52,487 bases of DNA from Kipferlia bialata (Eukaryota). The DNA lies in assembly GCA_003568945.1 (NCBI GenBank), contig BDIP01000006.1, positions 1-52,487 of the forward strand. The letters run 5' to 3'. Below the pieces are notes generated by a model that was not told where the DNA came from, did not search any database, and was given only the letters and a program-made list of their open reading frames with translations. Position numbers and translations under genes: made by a program. The first letter of the stretch is position 1, and each line of letters begins with the position of its first letter. This document shows positions 25,491 to 38,600 of this stretch, piece by piece.

Positions 25491-25646
25491 GTGGACGGCG
25501 CTAAAGAGTATTTGCTCGTCTTTCGCGGCACCAACACGAAGTTTTTGCTATAAGGGTGTAGAAGCACAATTCAACTCTCAGCCATTGAAGTCCCACTAGG
25601 CCTAGTATTCTTCTATTCTATTCTACTCCTCTATCCTGGTGCTTTG

Positions 25647-26795
25647 TCACCGAAAGTTCGCGAAACCCACTGTGAGTACTACCAGACCAAACAGCACCTT
25701 GGAGTCAGTAAATAGTTCAGACACACCCATATATACTATAACAAGTAATATAGATTTTTACAAATTGAGATTCAAACAGCACTACTAGGAGTCAGTAAAT
25801 CGTTCAGCACAACACATAGAGCACACTACCTATAATAAAAGACTACATATCACATTGGAGTCAAAGGAGAGGGTATACATAGACATACCGAAATAGAAAT
25901 AACAACCTACCTTACATATCGACACGTATAGGTGCACTGCAAATGACACCCTGAGAGAGGAGGTGGCCTCCGAGAGGTATCGCACATAGTGACCTCCATC
26001 GCCCTGTCTGGGGGTTAGGTGCAATGCTAAGCATACGATATGCAACCCAGATCAGGAATGCTACTTACTTCAAAATCATCAAAACAGTATCCCTCAAGGT
26101 ATCTGTGGTGTTATGGTGAGAGTAGCAGACTAGTACAACAGTACTTACACACACATATATATATGTAAGTATATATTACAATACTAAATATATATATAAA
26201 GCAGCATATATATACCTTAGGAATGGCAGCAGTGACAGTACTGCCATGCCGAGTGACACAGACAGTGCTAGCTCCAGTGTCTGAACCGCCTTAAAGGGCA
26301 CTAGCCCCATATCCCACTTGGACACAAAGACGTCAGTGACAGCCACGCTATCGAGTAGGGACTGCAACCGCGTAGAAACTATCAGTCTCTCTCCATTAAC
26401 AGTGACAGGTGCATACACACTCAGATCGGTGTGTGAGGAAGGGAGGGTCTGGGGGGGCAGGACGCACGTGTACTGGCTGTGGTGACAGCCTGAGGTACAC
26501 AAGATCTTGTCACTGACCGTGTAGGGCTCGACCTCACAATCCTCACAGTTGGATGCGTTATCGAGTAGGTTCTGGTTGGAGTATGGGGCTAGCACCTCTA
26601 GCGTGTCTGGTCTGACATCCCCCAGGGCATACCAGGTCTCTTAATGTCAGTAGAGAGACAATAGCTATATGTATACATACAAATGTATCTATATACATAT
26701 ATATATATATATAGAGAGAGAGATGTGTGTCTGGTCTGACATCACCCAGGGCATACCACGTCTCTGAAGATGAGAATATACATATATATATATAT

Positions 26796-26830
<35 letters not shown>

Positions 26831-29800
26831 CAAGGGCATATCAGGTCTCTGAAGGTAAGAAGAGAGACCCTAGCTGTCTATATACACCTATATATATTCA
26901 TACAGAGAGAGAGAGAGAGAGCATATCAGGTCTCAGGTGGGCGAGGTTTATATATCTATATATATATATATACACCTATTAATATATAGACATATATACC
27001 TGGTGATGGGTACACTATACTCTGCTGCACTATGGAGGGGGTGTGCAAGGTGTATATATTTATATATATTCACCCACCCACATATATCTATCTATCTATC
27101 TATCTATATATACTCTCTTATATACCTGGTGATGGGTACACTATACTCTGCTGCTGTATGGAGTATGGGTGGGCTAGGTGCAGGGGCCCAAGGTCAGACT
27201 GCTTCACACACACACCGCCTGGGGTATTAGCATTTAGCATACCTATAATTATATTTTTCAATAATAGTGTATTATTAAACTGAAGTATAGTCTATATACA
27301 CATTCTATGCAGGGGCCCAAGGTCAGACTGCTTCACACACACACCGCCTGACATTAGCATGTACGATACTATAGAATATATATATATCAATGATACTATA
27401 TATATAATTAGTAGTATATAATCTGTCAATATACACTGTGCAGAGGCCCAAGGTCAGACTGCTTCACACACACACCGCCTGACATCAGGATGTACGATAC
27501 TATAGAATATATATCAATGATATTGTATATATAATTAGTAGTGACCCATGTCAGACTGCTTCACACACACACCGCCTGGGGCATTAGACCACTAGGAGAC
27601 TTGCAATATACCAACATCCACTTATCATACTTCAGAATCACATTTACCTATATAATTATCATACACTACTTCACCGTACCTATCCTAGCTGTGCTGTATG
27701 CTGTCATGATATATAGACACACATATATACATAATAATGATATACTGACATACAATCACAATACTGTTCACTGTACAGTGAACCATGTTATTCCTATCCT
27801 GGCTGTGCTGTATGCTGTATGAGCATATACCATACTATAGTGTACATACAATACTGACACACTGATAATATCCATACATAGAACATACAATACTGTGTAC
27901 TATATCATACCTATCCTAGCTGTGCTGTATGCTGTCTGGGCATCGGCATGGGGAGGGGTGTAGTAGTCATAGACCTGGGTATCAATGCATATGAATAGTA
28001 TATATATATATACATATATATATAGTATGGTAATAATGAAGTATGCATATAATAGTATCGGCATGGGGAGGGGTGTAGTAGTCATACACCTGGGATTAGC
28101 ATATGGATATGAATACACATATATATGTGTGTATATTGGCAGTATCAGAATGGTGTGGTCCATAGATTATATGCTATACCTCAGCCGGTGGGCACAGGGG
28201 TATGGTCCCTGTCTGGATATAATGTATAGTATATGCATACATACACATATATATATACATATATATACATACACTACCTCAGCCGGTGGGCACAGGGGGA
28301 TGGTCCCTGTCTGGATAGCAGCTAACTCCTTGACGCACTGGAAGTAGCCTGTATAGTGAGGATACAGATATAGTGAAGAATAGTGCATACATATGTATAT
28401 ATATATATATTGGTACACATTAACAAACAGTGATAATAGAGTATGTGATGCACTGGTAGTGGCCTGATGGGTGACTATATATATACTATATATACTATAT
28501 ATAGTGAAGAAGAGTGCATACATATCCTGCTAGATATATATAGTATATCCTGCCAACACAGTGTACCTGCAACGTTCTGCACATCACACCCTCCAACACT
28601 AGTGATGACATCCCCACTCTGTATGGACAGGGGCAGACTGGATGCCAGTCTTGGGTCATAGGGGGAGGGGTCGATGTTGGTGACCATGGCACCTCCCTGA
28701 TGTGAGTAATATCCACTGTATTCAAATATCGTGTATGTATATAGTAGTGAGTGTGTGAGAGTATACTACTTTATCAATAGAGAGATAGAGGGACAAAGAG
28801 AGAGAGAGAGAGAATCAATGTTGGTGCCCATGGCACCGCCCTGATATCAGTACGATGCATACACAAGTACTTAGAGAGAGAGGGAGAGATAACAGATAGA
28901 TTCAATGATATATATATATATACTGTGTACCTTAGGGTCCCCCAGTCCCAGTGCCACTATCCACAGGCACAGGTAGACACAGAGACAGAGCAGCGTGTTG
29001 AAGGTACTGCCTAGGACATCAGTATCATACATAGTGAGATATACAAAGAATGAAAGAGAGAGAGATAGAGATAAAGAGAAGTGGCGCACAGACAGAGGAG
29101 GGTGTTGAAGGTACTGCCTGTGATGAGAGGGAGAGAGAGAGGGAGAGAGAGAGAGAGAGACGGGTACTGCAAAAGACAAATACCTGACAGTATGAGAGAC
29201 CGTCTCTGGGCCAGTGACACTGATGAGATGGGGGTGTGATATACATATATATACTAGTATCTATATAAGTGTATAAAAATCAATACTAGTATCTACATAA
29301 GTGTATATCACTGTATATACCTGACAGTATCAATGACCGTCTCTGTGCCAGTGGCACTGATGATATGGGTGTGTGGGTGGCCACATAGAGAGTGACCAGA
29401 CCGTATCTAGGGGGTCAGAAAGAAAGTATAGATATATCTAATACACAACACATGCACAGACCCAACCAATACAAGTAAATACGATATTAAATATTGTATA
29501 TACCAGAAATTGAGGCATATGGCTCTTACTGACACCTCCTGCACCCTGCATGCTACATGGTATTTATATGTATGGTATATATTCATATATATACTCTATA
29601 CATACATACACTACCTAAAGTTCAATCCAATAGCCCTCACTGGTACCCCCTGCACCCTGCATGCCATGTAGTGCCCCATCTCATGCACATATATACTATA
29701 TATACATATACTATATGCTATATACCTGAAATTGAGGCCAATGGCTCTCACTGGTACTCCCACCCTGCATGCCATGAAGTGCCCCATCTCATGCACAGAC

Positions 29801-29985
29801 ATATATATACACATACATATATACTATATGCTATATACCTGAAATTGAGGCCAATGGCTCTAACAGGAACGCCTTGTACCCTGCATGCCATGAAGTGCCC
29901 CATCTCATGCACTGACCCCACTAGTACAATGATGACATAGATCATCAGTACGCTGTTGCCCGTAGGCAACGCAAGACCTGGAATT

Positions 29986-30026
<41 letters not shown>

Positions 30027-30232
30027 AATGACCCAACCAGCACAATGATGACATAGATCATGAGGACACTGTTGCCCGTAGGCAATGCAAGACCTGGAGT
30101 TATAGAGAGAGAGAGAAATGACAGTGGGTAGTGCAAGTCCTAACGTAAGCTAGGGGGGGGGGAGAGAGAGAAAGAGAGGGAGAGAGCATTGATGACATAG
30201 ATCATAGGGACACTTTTACGGGTGGCATAATA

Positions 30233-30286
<54 letters not shown>

Positions 30287-31388
30287 CCCTCTCACCCCAG
30301 GTGCCATATATATATATATAGCGTACCTACAGCCCCCCTCTCCCCTGGTGACACTATGGCAGCTGCATTGTTGTATGCAGTCACAGCTGGGGGTAAGACA
30401 TACATATATGTATCTATTGCATATGTATAATACAAATATATATATAATACCTATATGTATGTATACTGGTTGAATGCAGTCACAGCTGGGGGTGAGTACA
30501 TTTTTGTATAAATATGAATTTTCCATATTGATACTATTCACACCTAGTATGGACATTATGTCTACTACATTATATATACACATAATAAACATACCTAGTA
30601 TGGGTAGAGTGCACAGCAGGGTCAGTGTGCATATATACATAGTATGAGAATACTATTAATATATGTATACAGACATACACACTCTATATACATTATATAT
30701 ACATTATATATACACATAATATACCCACCTAGTATGGGCAGTGTGCAGAGCAGGGTCAATTCGCCAAGGACACACACACAGCTCAGGAGACGCCTGGAGG
30801 GTAAGCGGCGAGATGAAAATATGAATACTGTTCATGTATACCTAATGTGTGCTCCATACATTCTCTCTCTCTCATATAATATATATATACACACCTTGTG
30901 AATGTGTGCTCCTTTCTGGCCTCCTTACTCAGTGGATGCCTGTCATTGGAGTGGTCACGGGAGGACTCGTTGACGCTGCCTAGGAGGGTGAGATGTATTT
31001 ACAAATGAGTACATATATATATATATATATATATATATGTCTGTCAGTGGAGTGGTCACGAGAGGATTCATTGACACTGCCTAGCCAGGGTGGGAGAGGA
31101 ATGTAAATATATATATGTGTGTGTGTAAAGAGAGAGAGAGGGTGAGATAGGAGTCGTTGACACTGCCTAGGGTGAGGGATATATATACATATATATATGT
31201 ATATAGAAAGACAGAGAGAAAGAGAGGATATGACTCATTGACACTGCCATGGGTGAGGGTGAGGGTGAGAGCGAGATAGACAGAGACAGAGTAGGATTGG
31301 ATAGGAATACATGTATCTGTGTGTGGAGAGAGAGAGAGAGAGATAGAGGACTTACTAACACTGCGAATGATGAGAGGGTAATATATGC

Positions 31389-31434
<46 letters not shown>

Positions 31435-31757
31435 GGATAGGACTCGTTGACGCTGCCTAGGGGGTAAGATAGATGTAGGTATATATATGTATGGAGAGAG
31501 AGACAGAGAGAGAGAGAGAGAGTACCTAGGTCCTGGGTGACATGCTCCCATACAAACCCCCACCAGCTGATGGACAGATGTCTCTGGGCCAGGGCAGAGG
31601 ACAGCACATTGCCATTGCCTACCTGCTATGAGACACAATAGCACAAAGAGAGAGAGAGAGTGAGTGAGAGAGAACGTACGTCAAATGCCCTGACGGTGTG
31701 GTACAGACACAGCCACACGGCCCAGGCCCCTAGCGGCAGTAAAAGTATCCCCAGCAT
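25647..31757 (-). CDS. Site-2 protease (peptidase M50, MBTPS2-like) intramembrane metalloprotease; start codon uncertain (31757 or up to ~31851)
   Basis: IYVIIVLVGSVHEMGHFMACRVQGVPVRAIGLNF (HExxH, ~29.84-29.95 kb). PDZ-like segment SLPLSIQSGDVITSVGGCDV (~28.6 kb). Cys-rich insert at 26.4-26.6 kb. ALSVSLGMAVLSLLPFLR|QGDGGH corresponds to the NxLP...DGG motif. Last exon VLFGLVVLTVGFANFR* (TGA 25649-25647). Confidence 0.88.
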
Positions 31758-32135
31758 ATAGGGGACACCCTAGTGCGGGTAACTATACAGGAGGGTAACT
31801 ACGGCTCCTATATAGTGTCAGTGTAAGACCAGTGACTGAGGGAAGCGTCATGATGCTCTTTTTGACAAAAGGGTGTAGTATGTTTTTGATTTCGGTGAGT
31901 AAGGGTGTAGCATATGATTGGATATGAATATCAGACCCTCAGACGTCCGCAGTGCGGCTCTTTCAGTGTCTCTGTTATCCGCTCACAGGCTAGCTAGGGC
32001 GACTTCCCGGCCCGTTTTACTGGGAGGGGGGCGTCCCTGGGAGGGAGAGCAGAGGGAGACAGAGAGAGAGAGGGACAGACACACCTAGAGAGAGAGAGAC
32101 AAACCCACAAAGAGAAAGAGAGAGGGAGAGAGTGT

Positions 32136-32946
32136 ATGGATTCTCATGGTGCTGCCTGGATAGTGGACCCTGACCAGATACCAGTAGGTGCCAGTATACC
32201 CTCTATCAGGGTGGACACCCACGTGCAGGACGGGGCTGTGTCTGCTAGGACACCAAGGGGGGGTAGGGTGGTAGGTGGCAGTGCACGTGGTATTGCCTCC
32301 TCTCGCTCGACTGGTCCTGGGCAGAGACGAGGTCACACACCTGTACACAACCAGCAGAGGGCATCTAGTAGGGGTGCATCTAGGGGTGCAGCAAGAGGGA
32401 CAGTTGCTGGTAGGACCCCTCGGTCTGTGTCCCAGTTAGAGGGACCTCCTTCACACAGAGAGAGGGGGAGGGAGAGAGAGGGGAGGGCTGGTGTGCAAGG
32501 CAGGGTGTCGCCTGGCCTGGCGGTAGGGAGGGAGGCGAGCAGGGGCCCCATGGTAGTGGGGCAGAGAGAGAGAGAGAGAGACACCTCTGGTAGTTCCAAC
32601 TTCTCTCCTCGTAGCTTCACCCCTAGAGGTACACCCCTCAGAGCATGGGGTGCTATAGGGGAGGGGGTATCCCCATCAGGCATACCAACCACGCCAGGTA
32701 CTATATAGTGTATATGGAGTGTATAGAGTGTGGTTTTGTATGCCGCAAGATTGCCCTACTCACCCTCACCCTCACCCTCACCCTCAGTGCGCGCCAGACT
32801 AGACACACCCCTAGGTGGTGGCACATTCAGTACAAGGCTGGTACGTTGACAGTAGTGTATATGAATGGGTAGTTGGTATCTCGTATCTTGCCAAACTGAC
32901 TGATTGTTCTGATACATACTGTGTCTCCTGCTCTCTCTAGCTTCCT

Positions 32947-32991
<45 letters not shown>

Positions 32992-33660
32992 CATATATAC
33001 TCCATGTATACATGTTATACATTACCAATCTCTCTATCTCGATACCTGATTGATTCTACATTCTCTCCCCCGTCCGCCCTCTAATACAATTCTATTCCCC
33101 CACTACCTTCGGCTTCTCTCTCTTCTCTCTCTCTCTAACCCCCTAGGTGGCTCTTCGCCAGAAGGAGAGAGAGAGAGAGAGGGAGAGAGAGGCTGCTGCC
33201 AAGGCCAGTCTGAGGGACGAGGAGAGTAGCCCCAGTCCATCCCCAGGTATATATGTATATTAATAGACATATATATAAAAATATGTATAGGGAGAGAGAG
33301 AGAGAGAGAGTAGTCCTAGTCCATCCCCAGGTATATACATAAATATACATACGTATTATCATACGCTAGACACCTATAGGTACTGATATCAGCCTCCAAG
33401 AGTGTCTCCCTGAGGTCCATCAGACAGGTTGAGAGAGAAAGGGAGAGAGAGAGGAATAGAGAGAGGAACAGAGACCTCTCTGATAGTGCCGCCCAGTCAC
33501 CCCTTGCTGCAACATTTGACAGTGCACTCTCACTGGGAGTCAGGTATATACACATATATACACATTAATATATATATATATATATATGCAATACTGTATA
33601 TACTTAATAATATATGTATCCTCACCCCTTGCATCCACACTGGACACACACACCTGTATC

Positions 33661-33696
<36 letters not shown>

Positions 33697-35097
33697 CTTT
33701 CCCTCTCTCTCTCTCCAACCACTAGGACCTCTGCTGTGCTTGACCTTGCCCTGACATACTATCTCTCTTCTCTCTCTCCCCTCTCTGTATACATCTATCT
33801 ATCTATCTAACCCCTTAGGACCTCCGCTGTGCTTGACCTTGCTCTGACATACTCTCTCTCTCTCTCTCTCTACATACATGTAGACAGTATGGTAACCCCC
33901 TAGGACCTCTGCTGTGCTTGACCTTGCCCTGACCTACACCAGCCAGGGGTCTAGGAAGCCAGGATATGGGGTGAGTAATATACATATTTAGGGATTTACC
34001 GATATTGGTATTCTCAGTGTTAAGTGAGTGGATATATCCCTTACTCTCAGGGCATCACCTCCATGGAGGACATCCGCAGACTCTGTGTCTGTCTCTCTCT
34101 CTCTCTATATATATATTTTCCTAAAGCTATATGCATATACCTAACTCTTAGGGCATTACCTCTATGGAAGACATCCGGCGACTGGTGGATGTGGATGGGG
34201 GGAGAGAGAGGATCAACAACGGGGCACTAGGTACTATATATAGTATATTTAGTATATGGTGTGTATTGTATGTATATAATGTAGTCAAGTATATGGAGAT
34301 ATATATGGATATATCACTCCAGTCATTGCCACCTGATCTCTCTCTCTCTCTCCATATATTTGTGTATATGTATATACCTATGCATCTCACCCCAGTCATT
34401 GCCACCTGGTGGAGAAGGGTCAGGGCCAGGAGGCGCATAGCATACGTCAGGGTGGGTGTGATTGTATTTCATAGCATATCCTATCACATCTCTTTTTCCA
34501 AGCACATGCCATTCACTGTTCAGTGTCTCTGAGCATTAGTATACTAAAGGAGATGTTGATACCACATATGTAACATACCTCTCACCCCCAAGTCCTTCAA
34601 CGAGAGAGAGAGACAGCGCAGACTGAGAGAGGCATTCACACAGTGGGGGCAGTGCAGGTATGTATATATATATAGAGAGATAGGTATATATGTAGAGAGA
34701 GAGGGAGAGAGAGAGACAGCGCAGACTGAGAGAGGCATTCACACAGTGGGGGGGGAGTGCAGGTATAAGCATTCATACATCTACATATATATGTATGTAT
34801 ATATATATATACAGAGAGAGAAAGAGAGAAAGGGAGGCATTCACCCAGTGGGGGCAGTGCAGGTATGTATACACCGTATGTGTATACATATTGGCAATAT
34901 TACTCAGTGTATGAAAGTATTACCACTTATAGATACATAGCTAACTCCCAGGATAGCCGTGTCCCATCGCAAGAGAGTGGTACGCCAGAGATTCATCATT
35001 GTGTGGAGGAAGCAGGTATGGGTTCACTCTCTCTGTCTCTCTCTCCCTCTACCCCCTTAATGTCAGGTCGGTGTTGACTCTGCCTCCAGGGCCCATG

Positions 35098-35135
<38 letters not shown>

Positions 35136-35615
35136 TACACCCCTAATCTCAGGTCGGTGTTGACTCTGCCTCCAGGGCCCAGAAGGTGCTGGCCAAGAAC
35201 ATACTCAGACGGCATCTAAGGGAGTGGAGGGTGAGTTTTATCATTCACTCTCTCTGAGTATATGTATACATGTACATATATACATCAATATTGTATCTGC
35301 CAATTAACATACTCAGACGGCATCTGAGGGAGTGGAGGGTATGTATACGATTATTGGAGATAGTGCTGCAGTGTTATATATATATATATATATATATGTA
35401 TATACATATATCTATTCTCTATCCCCCCAGGCCTGGGCCCGGGAGGAGGCAGAGGTCAAGATCATTATTATATGTATACATACATGTGTATACTATGTAT
35501 AGTGTATATATACACCTTGGTATATCTATTCTCTAACCCCCCAGGCCTGGGCCCGGGAGGAAGCAGAGGTCAAGAGGAGGGAGGCCATGTTCACACAGCA
35601 GAGGAGGTATTCATA

Positions 35616-35647
<32 letters not shown>

Positions 35648-38600
35648 GTATATGTGTGTAGTATATATAGATATTGTATCATGTGTATACTTATATATAT
35701 AGCGTATACAGGTCAAGAGGAGGGAGGCCATGTTCACACAGCAGAGGAGGTATGTGTACTCTATATATAGTGTACAGTAAACATATATATATTGCATACC
35801 ATTTGTTTACTTGCATGTATATATAGTGTGATAGGTCAACAGAAGAAAGGCCGTGTTCACACAGCAGAGGAGGTATGTATAAATATGTACATAGTATGTA
35901 GTGCACACTATAGTTGTAAATGCGTGTACTCACTCTCCAGGGGCTATGTCCTCAGGTATATATATGTATGTACCGATATTTCAGTGTATAAGTATATATG
36001 GATAGAGTATATATACTCCTTTATACACTCACCCTCCAGGGGCTATGTCCTCAGGGCCTATCTCAGACACTGATGTTATGAGTATATATATGTCACATCT
36101 GTAGTATGTATGGAGTATACACTCTGGTATCTGGTATCTGTATCATCCATTCCTTACCCTAGGGGCTATGTCCTCAGGGCCTATCTCAGACACTGGAGTG
36201 CATGGGCACAGTACAATGGCACAAAGGTATCATATATGTATGTATTATATACATATAAGATGTGTATGATTACATAGGGACAAAGGTATATGAGAGAGAG
36301 TATATATATACTATATCAATATACTTGGCACTGGAGTGCATGGGCACAGTACAACGGCACAAAGGTATTGTGTATATGAGTATGTATGTATATATATAGA
36401 GAGAGATTGAGAGAGAGCATATATATTACTGGAGTGCATGGGCACAGTACAACGGCACTGCAATACCTCTATATTATTATCTAATAATATATATATATAT
36501 ACTTTTATATATGTATACATATCTAATAGATATACCTAACTCCAGGACCGAGCCATGTCCTACAACGGCAAGGCCGGCACTGCTATACCTACATATCTAT
36601 ATATATACATATATATAACATAATATAAATATACCTCCAGTATATGTATACTAATGCCTCAGGACCGAGCCATGTCCTACAACGGCAAGGCCGGCACCGA
36701 CGCCTCCTCAGCTGCACTGTACACTGAGCCGGGGGACATATCACTGTACAACCTGCCGAGGAGACTACATAGGATACCACAGGTACTTAACATATTGTAT
36801 ACAGTATATACGTAGCGAGGGGACATATCACTCTATAACCTGCCGAGGAGACTGCACAGGATACCTCAGGTATATATGAGTGGTTTGATGTTGTATGTAT
36901 ACGTGTATATATACCATCTCCCACCCCAGATGCTTGTGCCCATGGCTGCTGACTCCCCAGTCTGGAGACGCTACATGCGCCGCAAGGTATATATGTGTGT
37001 ATTCATATAATGTATGCGTCTCTTCTCCTACCTCTCTGTGTACATATATCTGACCTGTATATATGTTTGTACGTACGTATACATATACATATTTAGCCTC
37101 TAGGCCCTTGTGGCGCAATGACATCCGCATACGTGTTCACACAATGTCTCTCTCTCTCCCCCCCCCCCTCTCTCTCTCTCTGTCTTACCCCCAGGCCCTT
37201 GTGTGGCGCAATGACATCCGCATCACATGTGCAGTCAGTGACGCCATGATTGGGAGGTACCATTATGTATATAGTGTAGTCACTGTAATACTATATATAT
37301 ATATGTATATATAGTATATATGTACTAGAAGTAGTGATATGCTGCATCACATGTGCAGTCAGTGACGCCATGATCGGGAGGTATATATATATTTATATAT
37401 GTATATATATACATAGATGCATGATATTCACTATATACTTGTGCAGTCAGTGACGCCATGATTGGGAGGTGCCATTTAGATATAGTATATTGACTATAAC
37501 ACTGATATATAGGTATATATAGTATATATATGTACCAGAAGTAGTGATATGTTGCATCACATGTGCAGTCAGTGACGCCATGATCGGAAGGTGCCATTAT
37601 GGATATAGTGTAGTCACTATAGTACTATATATATATATATGTATATATAGTATAGTATATGTACTAGAAGTAGTGATATGTTGCATCACATGTGCAGTCA
37701 GGGACGCCATGACAGGGAGGTATTGGGACAATAGATTCTCCCTCTACACCCCTAACCCAATTACCTCATCTCTCTCTCCCTTCCCGCTTAATACGGCGGC
37801 TATCTACTTTCATTTATCTCTCCCCCTCTACACCCTTGATTCCCAGGCCAAAGTCTCTCTCTCTCTCTCTCTCTCTCTCCCTGCACCCTTAATCCCCAGG
37901 CCATGGCTGCAGAGGTGGAGACAGGCCACGGCACTCAGACTGGACGACAGTGAGGTAGCATACATGTATATCGATGAGTATATACAAAGTATATATGTAC
38001 ATTTATATGGAGAGAGAGAGAGACTGGCCACGGCACTCAGACTGGATGACAGTGAGGTATCATAGGGATATACTCTATATATAGTAGATATATGGGGGGA
38101 GAGAGAGAGAGAGAGGCAGGCCACGGCACTCAGACTGGATGACAGCGAGGTATGTATTGGTTTTGGTATCAACAATTGTATATAGAGATCCGATGGATCA
38201 GACCCTTGCCATCCGTGTATTCTCTCTCTCTCTCTATTGTACACTGACACCCAGGCCCTTGCCCAGGCCACAGCATACTATCATATTTATATGTATTCGT
38301 TTCACTATACTATCAACTATTGGTATATACTACTTCCCTCTATCCTAACTAGCAGGCCCTTGCCCAGGCCACAGCTTACTACCGCAGACGGGTGCTCCTG
38401 CCCGCTCTGGTGAGTGGAAATGTCTATATCTATGTATTTGCACCACATATATACATATTTATATTCATCTAGATATATAGATATATATACTGCTAAGAAT
38501 TCAGGGGTGCTCCTGCCTGCTCTGGTGAGAGGATATGTGTATCTATGTCTGTGTATATACCCAATATGATATATAAGTAGACATATTTATATGCGTCAGC

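What the first reader, a model, noticed from the sequence alone, without database searches (positions are those of the whole stretch)
29500..29915. Catalytic HExxH exon of the site-2 protease is echoed, with near-saturated synonymous divergence and an in-frame codon deletion
Real exon end (minus, ~29840-29911): VHEMGHFMACRVQGVPVRAIGLNF. The echo at ~29616-29688 differs in 13 codons, 12 of them synonymous plus F>Y. The echo at ~29727-29796 lacks exactly 3 nt (RVQGV>RVGV). A more decayed copy lies at ~29505-29555. This shows the phenomenon on the minus strand and in a conserved enzyme, and the donor sequences can be as distant as separate species at silent sites.
Basis: seen in the sequence. Interest (0 to 1): 0.7.

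Follow-up and report, generated by a model that had tools for sequence, protein, structure and literature searches.

The report
Intron echoes that look like alleles
In the anaerobic flagellate Kipferlia, about 70% of the exons examined have short copies of their own ends and splice signals stacked in the neighbouring introns, and these copies differ from the working exon mostly at silent positions, which likely means they are left-over versions from very different individuals and would be indirect evidence of genetic exchange in a group where sex has not been observed.

Summary
Confirmed, and much wider than the finding. The HExxH exon of the site-2 protease (source label Kipferlia bialata KIPB_000079) has three copies of its 3' end plus donor in the next intron, and copies of its 5' end plus acceptor in the previous one. 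An RNA-like contig uses only the real exon. Window-wide, 74 of 106 exons carry such ~100-nt units (158 copies, 55% of intron DNA). These work like amphioxus 'mirage' repeats, which this scan has noted before in marine invertebrates. What differs: copies mismatch the exon at 27% of fourfold sites but 3% of non-degenerate sites (neutral copies give about 2:1). They are star-like and patchy, and some arrays are recombinant. Best reading (0.6): arrays are refreshed by out-of-register exchange with other haplotypes of a very diverse population, so echoes are former alleles. A toy model reproduces the ratio only with between-chromosome exchange. Against: no second allele, paralog or other isolate was found, and the data are patchier than the model. 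The 3-nt deletion is unconfirmed and carries no frame signal.

The parts
25647..31757 (-). Site-2 protease (peptidase M50) gene, 539 aa, source label KIPB_000079
   Evidence: Pfam M50 46.1 bits vs cut-off 27.2; my 13-exon chain lies letter for letter inside P0001; the two ends read by eye
29839..29977 (-). Working exon with HEMGH zinc motif
   Evidence: RNA-like contig X2 record 11 covers 29839-29975 with 0 other letters
29407..29838 (-). Spliced intron (432 nt, GT..AG) holding the three downstream echoes
   Evidence: joint 29406/29839 in X2, depth 971 (table 5)
29726..29800 (-). Echo 1: exon 3' part plus donor, 113 nt offset; silent changes clustered in codons 12-17 around a 3-nt gap (gap unconfirmed)
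   Evidence: table 4
29615..29688 (-). Echo 2: exon 3' part plus a different donor flank, 224 nt offset; 12 silent codon changes in codons 12-24, F>Y at codon 7
   Evidence: inside DNA contig X1 record 8 (29171-29735, 0 differences, depth 429)
29506..29553 (-). Echo 3: decayed 3' part, acceptor-less, 335 nt offset
   Evidence: X1 record 8
30025..30093 (-). Upstream echo 1: acceptor plus exon 5' half, 116 nt offset, 7 synonymous and 1 non-synonymous difference
30120..30141 (-). Upstream echo 2: short acceptor plus GLALPT-coding piece with silent changes
   Evidence: read by eye; below the score threshold
30187..30227 (-). Upstream echo 3: decayed 5'-half copy without acceptor
1..52487 (.). Same polar echo arrays on 74 of 106 hand-curated exons in five exon chains on both strands

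Best explanation
The echoes are intronic tandem units of about 100 nt that each hold one splice site and the adjoining exon end, with only the innermost copy spliced in the RNA contig seen, and they are likely refreshed by out-of-register recombination with other, highly divergent haplotypes, so that each echo would be a recent former allele. Step 1 (inferred): a local duplication across one splice junction, often ending beside a TA or CT run, seeds the array. Copies spanning both junctions are presumably purged. Step 2 (shown for six S2P joints, inferred elsewhere): the spliceosome takes the first donor after the exon and the last acceptor before it, by position and not by site strength, so extra units are harmless. 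Step 3 (inferred): unequal crossover or conversion between homologues moves exon ends of other alleles into echo slots, and echo tracts into the coding slot, much faster than echoes decay. Echo versus exon divergence then equals allelic divergence (silent about 0.2-0.3 or more, locally saturated), with replacement changes already filtered by selection. Step 4 (inferred): outer and junction-side parts slowly decay.
For: Local: score >=30 match in 100 of 202 adjacent exon-intron pairs vs 103 of 10504 non-adjacent. Polar: 67 of 70 upstream copies start at the exon start and 0 reach its end; 83 of 88 downstream copies end at the exon end. One seed junction reused: 32 of 54 successive copies share it within 4 nt, vs 13.1+-3.2 by chance. 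Allele-like divergence: fourfold 262/973 vs non-degenerate 123/3832; nearest copy 157/598 vs 62/2341; neutral copies through the same detector give 1.83-2.06. Fourfold divergence is flat with rank (0.26, 0.29, 0.22). Star-like: private fourfold states real 30, echo 1 22, echo 2 23 of 217 sites, vs 11, 9, 23 of 894 non-degenerate. Four-gamete incompatibility in 4 of 12 arrays. Silent changes cluster (114 vs 91.3+-6.3 adjacent pairs, p 0.0002). Toy model: within-chromosome exchange never exceeded ratio 2.4 in 23 settings. Between-chromosome exchange at theta 0.2 and rate 1000 mu gave d4 0.33, d0 0.024 and equal private states. Echo splice sites score like real ones (donor 5.44 vs 5.60, 48 of 83 at least as high), yet the RNA contig uses the real ones. 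Metamonads lack NHEJ, and fornicates lack Rad51A and keep two Dmc1 paralogs (PMC8516963, passages).
Against: No second allele is visible. P0001 is a cluster of one and two protein searches returned only it. Contigs over 21800-30450 list no variant in the S2P exons (contigs drop variants). A metagenome scan gave 3 distant loci only, at 43-57% identity. The toy panmictic model gives less clustering than observed (0.97-1.14 vs 1.25), so population structure or added cis conversion is needed; runs are single and noisy. The predicted excess of replacement changes on the junction side is in the right direction but not significant (0.032 vs 0.022, p 0.10). Both echoes carry private silent states in only 13 of 37 arrays. 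The SOUL-like gene shows little divergence (3/21 fourfold). Recurrent mutation can mimic four-gamete conflicts at this divergence.
Confidence: 0.6

Rival explanations
1. One or a few hybridisation or introgression events between deeply diverged lineages (cryptic species) supplied the donor sequences. Homologue-templated break repair then pasted exon ends next to the resident ones, and the genome later became homozygous.
For: Short near-saturated tracts (fourfold mismatch 0.68 in about 30% of echo sequence); clustering beyond the panmictic toy model; no heterozygosity seen here.
Against: Up to three or more states per array and all three bipartitions in one array need several donors; per-echo divergence is a broad continuum (deciles 0 to 0.35). 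It shares the core inference (divergent haplotypes recombined) with the best reading.
Confidence: 0.17
2. Echoes are kept protein-coding by selection in cis: they are used in minor transcripts or regularly swapped into the coding slot, so replacement changes are purged while silent sites drift.
For: Splice sites intact and strong; 10:1 ratio at the nearest copy.
Against: 14 of 18 gaps shift the frame; 5 stops among 114 changed codons, about the random 4.9%; no copy has both splice sites; the RNA contig skips them; cis-only exchange with selection never passed ratio 2.4 in the toy model.
Confidence: 0.1
3. Echoes are neutral snapshots of an exon whose silent sites mutate much faster than intron DNA (exon-specific hypermutation).
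For: Would explain a high silent to replacement ratio with no outside donor.
Against: Echo 1 holds private silent states 10 times more often than private non-degenerate ones (22/217 vs 9/894). Echo 2 of the focal exon has 6 private silent codons where the real exon, echo 1 and echo 3 agree. The intron flank is at least as diverged (donor +4..+12 mismatch 0.41-0.52, ungapped so inflated by slippage). Divergence does not grow with rank.
Confidence: 0.05
4. Assembly artefact: alleles or strains in the culture were joined in tandem by a short-read assembler.
For: Short-read draft; one exact duplicate across an N gap at 21681-21781; the odd double-depth contig at echo 1; X1 may be the window's own source.
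Against: A separately built contig spans echoes 2 and 3 and the next exon with 0 differences at the single-copy depth of its neighbours (429 vs 421-458). The RNA contig splices across exactly that 432-nt intron. Copies lack one splice site, share seed junctions and decay with frameshifts.
Confidence: 0.04

Closest known systems
Amphioxus 'mirage' minisatellites (Adh3, globins BflGb6/BflGb9, troponin C, PGBD5). PMC3087553 and PMC3902484, passages read; original Adh3 paper PMC117041 not held
   Same: Tandem units span an exon-intron boundary on either side, duplicate AG or GT, and do not disturb splicing; unequal crossing-over is proposed there too; units of 10-72, 60-108 and 150-160 bp bracket the ~100 nt here.
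   Different: There a few loci in an animal; here 74 of 106 exons and 55% of intron DNA in a unicellular metamonad. The globin paper describes concerted evolution within clusters, and the word 'synonymous' occurs 0 times in both papers' main text. Here copies show an 8-10:1 silent bias and star-like, mosaic relationships. Haplotype length polymorphism, shown in amphioxus, could not be tested here.
Human F7 IVS7 37-bp VNTR (PMC1557585, abstract and outline read)
   Same: First repeat spans the exon-intron border; downstream pseudo-donors are functional but silent because the most upstream donor is chosen by position.
   Different: Single locus with pseudo-sites identical in sequence; donor side only; mammalian spliceosome, whereas K. 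bialata retains 87 of 174 spliceosomal proteins (PMC6679479, passages).
Intron gain by tandem or internal gene duplication (Rogers model; cited in PMC3087553 passages; related papers seen only as a search listing)
   Same: Local duplications involving splice signals add intron DNA.
   Different: That model creates a new intron from a duplicated AG|GT. Here existing introns grow by about 100 nt per copy, and the polarity is exon end plus its own splice site.
Site-2 protease, peptidase family M50 (the host gene)
   Same: HExxH motif, Pfam M50 above cut-off.
   Different: The enzyme is incidental: four other exon chains show the same arrays.

Membership tests
Mirage minisatellite | Head-to-tail unit that spans an exon-intron boundary | tested here: met
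   150 of 158 copies anchored at an exon end; unit medians 99 and 112 nt
Mirage minisatellite | Splice signal duplicated in most units | tested here: met
   AG kept in 62 of 70, GT in 81 of 88; scores like real sites
Mirage minisatellite | Normal splicing unaffected | tested here: met
   Six listed RNA-contig joints in the S2P gene all join real exons (14 further joints not shown, minor isoforms invisible in contigs)
Mirage minisatellite | Copy-number polymorphism or instability between haplotypes | not testable with these tools
   No second haplotype or isolate found
Mirage minisatellite | Concerted evolution among units within a cluster (reported for BflGb6) | tested here: inconclusive
   Shared junctions and some near-identical echoes, but private states are about equal in exon and echoes
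Mutually exclusive duplicated exons | Whole-exon copies with acceptor and donor | tested here: not met
   3 of 150 copies span a whole (30-35 nt) exon and none keeps AG
Intron gain by tandem duplication of AG|GT | Intron starts with a copy of the next exon's beginning and ends with a copy of the previous exon's end | tested here: not met
   Opposite polarity in 150 of 158 copies
Paralog or second-strain fragment | A full-length gene elsewhere carrying the echo codons | tested here: inconclusive
   None; the whole genome was not available and protein searches cannot see silent sites
Peptidase M50 (site-2 protease) | HExxH in a hydrophobic segment and Pfam PF02163 above cut-off | tested here: met
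   46.1 bits vs 27.2

The most novel reading that the evidence does not exclude
Kipferlia introns are largely built from stacked former alleles of the flanking exon ends. A single genome would then archive a hyper-diverse, recombining gene pool (silent diversity of 0.25 or more, with saturated tracts). That would be sequence evidence of exchange between divergent haplotypes in a metamonad, and of an intron-growth process driven by homologue-templated repair in a lineage without NHEJ or Rad51A.
Probability: 0.55. Interest if true: 0.8.

Novelty: new variant of a known kind. Interest (0 to 1): 0.64.

Why it matters
Sexual or parasexual processes have not been directly observed in Metamonada (PMC8516963, passage). 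Kipferlia's 124,912 introns were read as probably ancestral (PMC5874029, passages). If echoes are former alleles, one assembly yields population-level diversity and recombination signal, and predicts exactly which codon patches other isolates should carry. Independently of mechanism, over half of the intron DNA examined is recent exon-junction duplication. Each exon offers several equally strong decoy sites to a reduced spliceosome, which makes this a natural test bed for position-based splice-site choice. The silent-bias test is also applicable to mirages in amphioxus and other marine invertebrates.

Tried and rejected
No whole genome was held, so genome-wide extent and a DNA-level paralog search are untested. 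Run search: two holders of one sample, no run on record as RNA; X2 is only guessed to be RNA, though its contig is spliced GT..AG. Contigs could be laid only on 21800-30450, so the upstream part of the gene and the other genes have no RNA check. An automatic gene finder took echoes for mini-exons, so exons were curated by hand. The minus-strand gene at 17900-24900, one exon near 44250 with an apparent GC donor, hits with more than 40% dinucleotide runs, and (from then on) 8 unanchored copies were left out of the counts. The idea that an echo is joined through cryptic sites inside the exon was dropped: the RNA contig uses the whole real exon. The idea of one nested insertion of a whole exon was dropped: upstream and downstream copy numbers do not match, and long exons keep short echoes. 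Metagenome loci L001-L003 are distant M50 proteins. Literature: searches listed no paper on such repeats in Kipferlia or on silent-site bias in mirages. The library lacks most subscription papers and the original mirage paper, and no supplements were read (the mirage alignments in PMC3087553's additional files may bear on the bias).

Full report
Observation. The minus-strand exon 29977-29839 encodes the HEMGH motif of a peptidase M50 protein. A search with another exon returned one protein, P0001, labelled by its sources as Kipferlia bialata KIPB_000079 / Endopeptidase S2P, a cluster of one. My 13-exon chain lies letter for letter inside it and Pfam M50 scores 46.1 bits. Echo 2 differs in 13 of 24 codons, 12 silent, with P = 3.8e-5 for a neutral copy, uncorrected for selection of this case. 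The differences are patchy: the real exon differs from all three echoes in 5 of codons 12-17 (codon 13 is deleted in echo 1), and echo 2 stands apart in codons 18-24 and its donor flank. The previous intron holds copies of the exon's 5' half with the acceptor.

Is it real and intronic? Contigs of two runs of one sample were laid on 21800-30450. An RNA-like contig (depth 971) carries the real exon with no other letters and joins it to 29406, skipping 432 nt GT..AG that contain all three echoes. The six RNA joints listed in this gene all join real exons; 14 further joints were not shown. A DNA contig spans 29171-29735 (echoes 2 and 3 and the next exon) with no difference at depth 429, like its neighbours (421-458). 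That run may be the window's source, so it checks the assembly and is not an independent strain. One contig of depth 807 shows the missing codon at the echo 1 gap; a collapse of real exon and echo 1 is the simplest cause, so the deletion is unconfirmed.

Extent. A self-comparison showed ~100-nt-period duplications along the whole window. I curated five exon chains (106 exons, 101 introns), stop-free except for one stop in the SOUL-like chain, whose last exon runs to its terminal codon; Pfam gives weak FERM_N, LRR and SOUL hints for single exons. Exons match an adjacent intron in 100 of 202 pairs and a non-adjacent one in 103 of 10504; the top-scoring ones of these come from GA-rich exons. After removing low-complexity hits, 158 copies remain on 74 exons. 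Upstream copies start at the exon start (67 of 70; AG kept in 62) and never reach its end. Downstream copies end at the exon end (83 of 88; GT kept in 81). Units are about 99 and 112 nt. They cover 16302 of 29450 intron bases, and intron length tracks copy number (rho 0.87; median 141.5 nt with none, 692 nt with five). Successive copies share their inner junction (32 of 54 vs 13.1 expected), so arrays grow from one seed. Junctions lie beside a dinucleotide run in 25 of 45 and 30 of 51 arrays vs 36% of background windows (modest, and the upstream test used fewer run types).

The anomaly. A copy that is identical at birth and neutral afterwards can reach at most about 2:1 for fourfold vs non-degenerate mismatch; simulation through the same detector gave 1.83-2.06. 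Observed: 262/973 vs 123/3832 overall and 157/598 vs 62/2341 for nearest copies. It holds in four of five chains; the SOUL-like gene has few data (3/21 vs 0/106). Fourfold divergence does not grow with distance from the exon. In 37 arrays with two echoes, private fourfold states are 30, 22 and 23 of 217 for exon, echo 1 and echo 2, against 11, 9 and 23 of 894 non-degenerate. Four of 12 larger arrays fail the four-gamete test. Silent changes cluster (p 0.0002), and a two-state fit puts 30% of echo sequence in short tracts with 0.68 fourfold mismatch (tract lengths are rough and double changes in one codon contribute). The replacement changes that do occur look like decay: 5 stops among 114 changed codons, and 14 of 18 gaps shift the frame.

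Mechanism. Shown: structure, polarity, statistics and the splicing of one gene. Inferred: the copies behave like random alleles of a coding sequence, with little decay added. A toy population model with a working first unit and out-of-register exchange never passed a ratio of 2.4 when exchange stayed within a chromosome (23 settings). Between chromosomes, theta 0.2 and a rate of 1000 mu gave d4 0.33, d0 0.024, pi4 0.315 and equal private states; theta 0.03 never combined high d4 with a high ratio (single noisy runs). In the fast between-chromosome settings (rate 300 mu or more) echo divergence is close to population diversity, which implies silent diversity of roughly 0.2-0.3 or more. The model under-predicts clustering (0.97-1.14 vs 1.25), so deep structure, introgression or extra cis conversion is probably involved. 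The needed rate is small in absolute terms, so rare exchange in a mostly clonal, homozygous line is compatible (inference). Echo splice sites are as strong as real ones (donor p 0.66, acceptor p 0.18), so site choice is positional, as shown experimentally for F7 IVS7 donors (PMC1557585, abstract). Loss of NHEJ and Rad51A with two Dmc1 paralogs (PMC8516963, passages) makes homologue-templated repair plausible but is not evidence for it.

Against. No second allele, paralog or conspecific locus was found. The genome paper reports two k-mer peaks and infers diploidy but gives no heterozygosity figure in the passages and sections read (PMC5874029). The junction-side excess of replacement changes is not significant. 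Only 13 of 37 arrays have private silent states in both echoes. One window of a 51-Mb genome was examined.

Known relatives. Earlier scan notes on sea-urchin DNA pointed to amphioxus 'mirages', and 64 notes in at least 6 other genomes hold those search words, the 8 shown all invertebrate (unchecked). The papers confirm the class: tandem copies of exon-intron boundaries on either side, harmless to splicing, unstable in length (PMC3087553, PMC3902484; passages). Three defining features are met here, one is untestable and one inconclusive. Neither paper's main text contains 'synonymous'. The original Adh3 paper was not available and supplements were not read. The Kipferlia genome paper has 0 occurrences of 'duplicat', and my searches listed no description of these arrays in a protist.

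Verdict. A real, near-saturating mirage-type architecture in a metamonad, with an allele-like signature that I did not find described: a new variant of a known kind. The protease is incidental and the in-frame deletion is not meaningful. Interest 0.64; 0.8 if other isolates confirm that echoes are former alleles.

Noticed in passing
window 13500-13690 (minus): Short dynein heavy chain motor fragment (Pfam AAA_6, 32.6 bits) beside an N gap, followed by ordinary non-echo sequence; possibly a mis-scaffolded or partial gene.
   Followed up: partly
window 17900-24900 (minus): Thr/Ser/Gly-rich protein with long internal coding repeats at 66-86% DNA identity (18899-20895) and two-exon modules; no Pfam hit for one repeat exon. 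Looks like a surface or fibre protein. Its 3'-proximal introns seem to have fewer echoes; left out of the counts.
   Followed up: no
window 44245-44320 (plus): An exon whose donor appears to be GC; one downstream echo has GT and another GC at that place. A possible non-canonical donor (by eye).
   Followed up: no
window 14572-17294 (plus): SOUL heme-binding-like gene (weak Pfam hint) with fewer and less diverged echoes than the other genes (4 of 10 exons; 3/21 fourfold).
   Followed up: partly
window 21681-21781: Exact 46-nt duplicate on both sides of a 9-base N gap: an assembly artefact, unlike the echoes.
   Followed up: yes
window 33147-52424 (plus): Very large gene (over 1860 aa in 51 curated exons) with W/R-rich repeats that recall Sfi1 centrin-binding repeats (label from memory; two exons gave no Pfam hit).
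   Followed up: partly
all introns: Branch-point-like CTAAC/CTCAC/CTTAC within 20 nt of the acceptor in 75 of 101 introns; donor-side spacers are TA-rich and acceptor-side spacers CT-rich (spacers by eye).
   Followed up: partly
window 6388-6746 (plus): Compound units holding two stacked donor copies inside one larger repeat, suggesting arrays of arrays.
   Followed up: no
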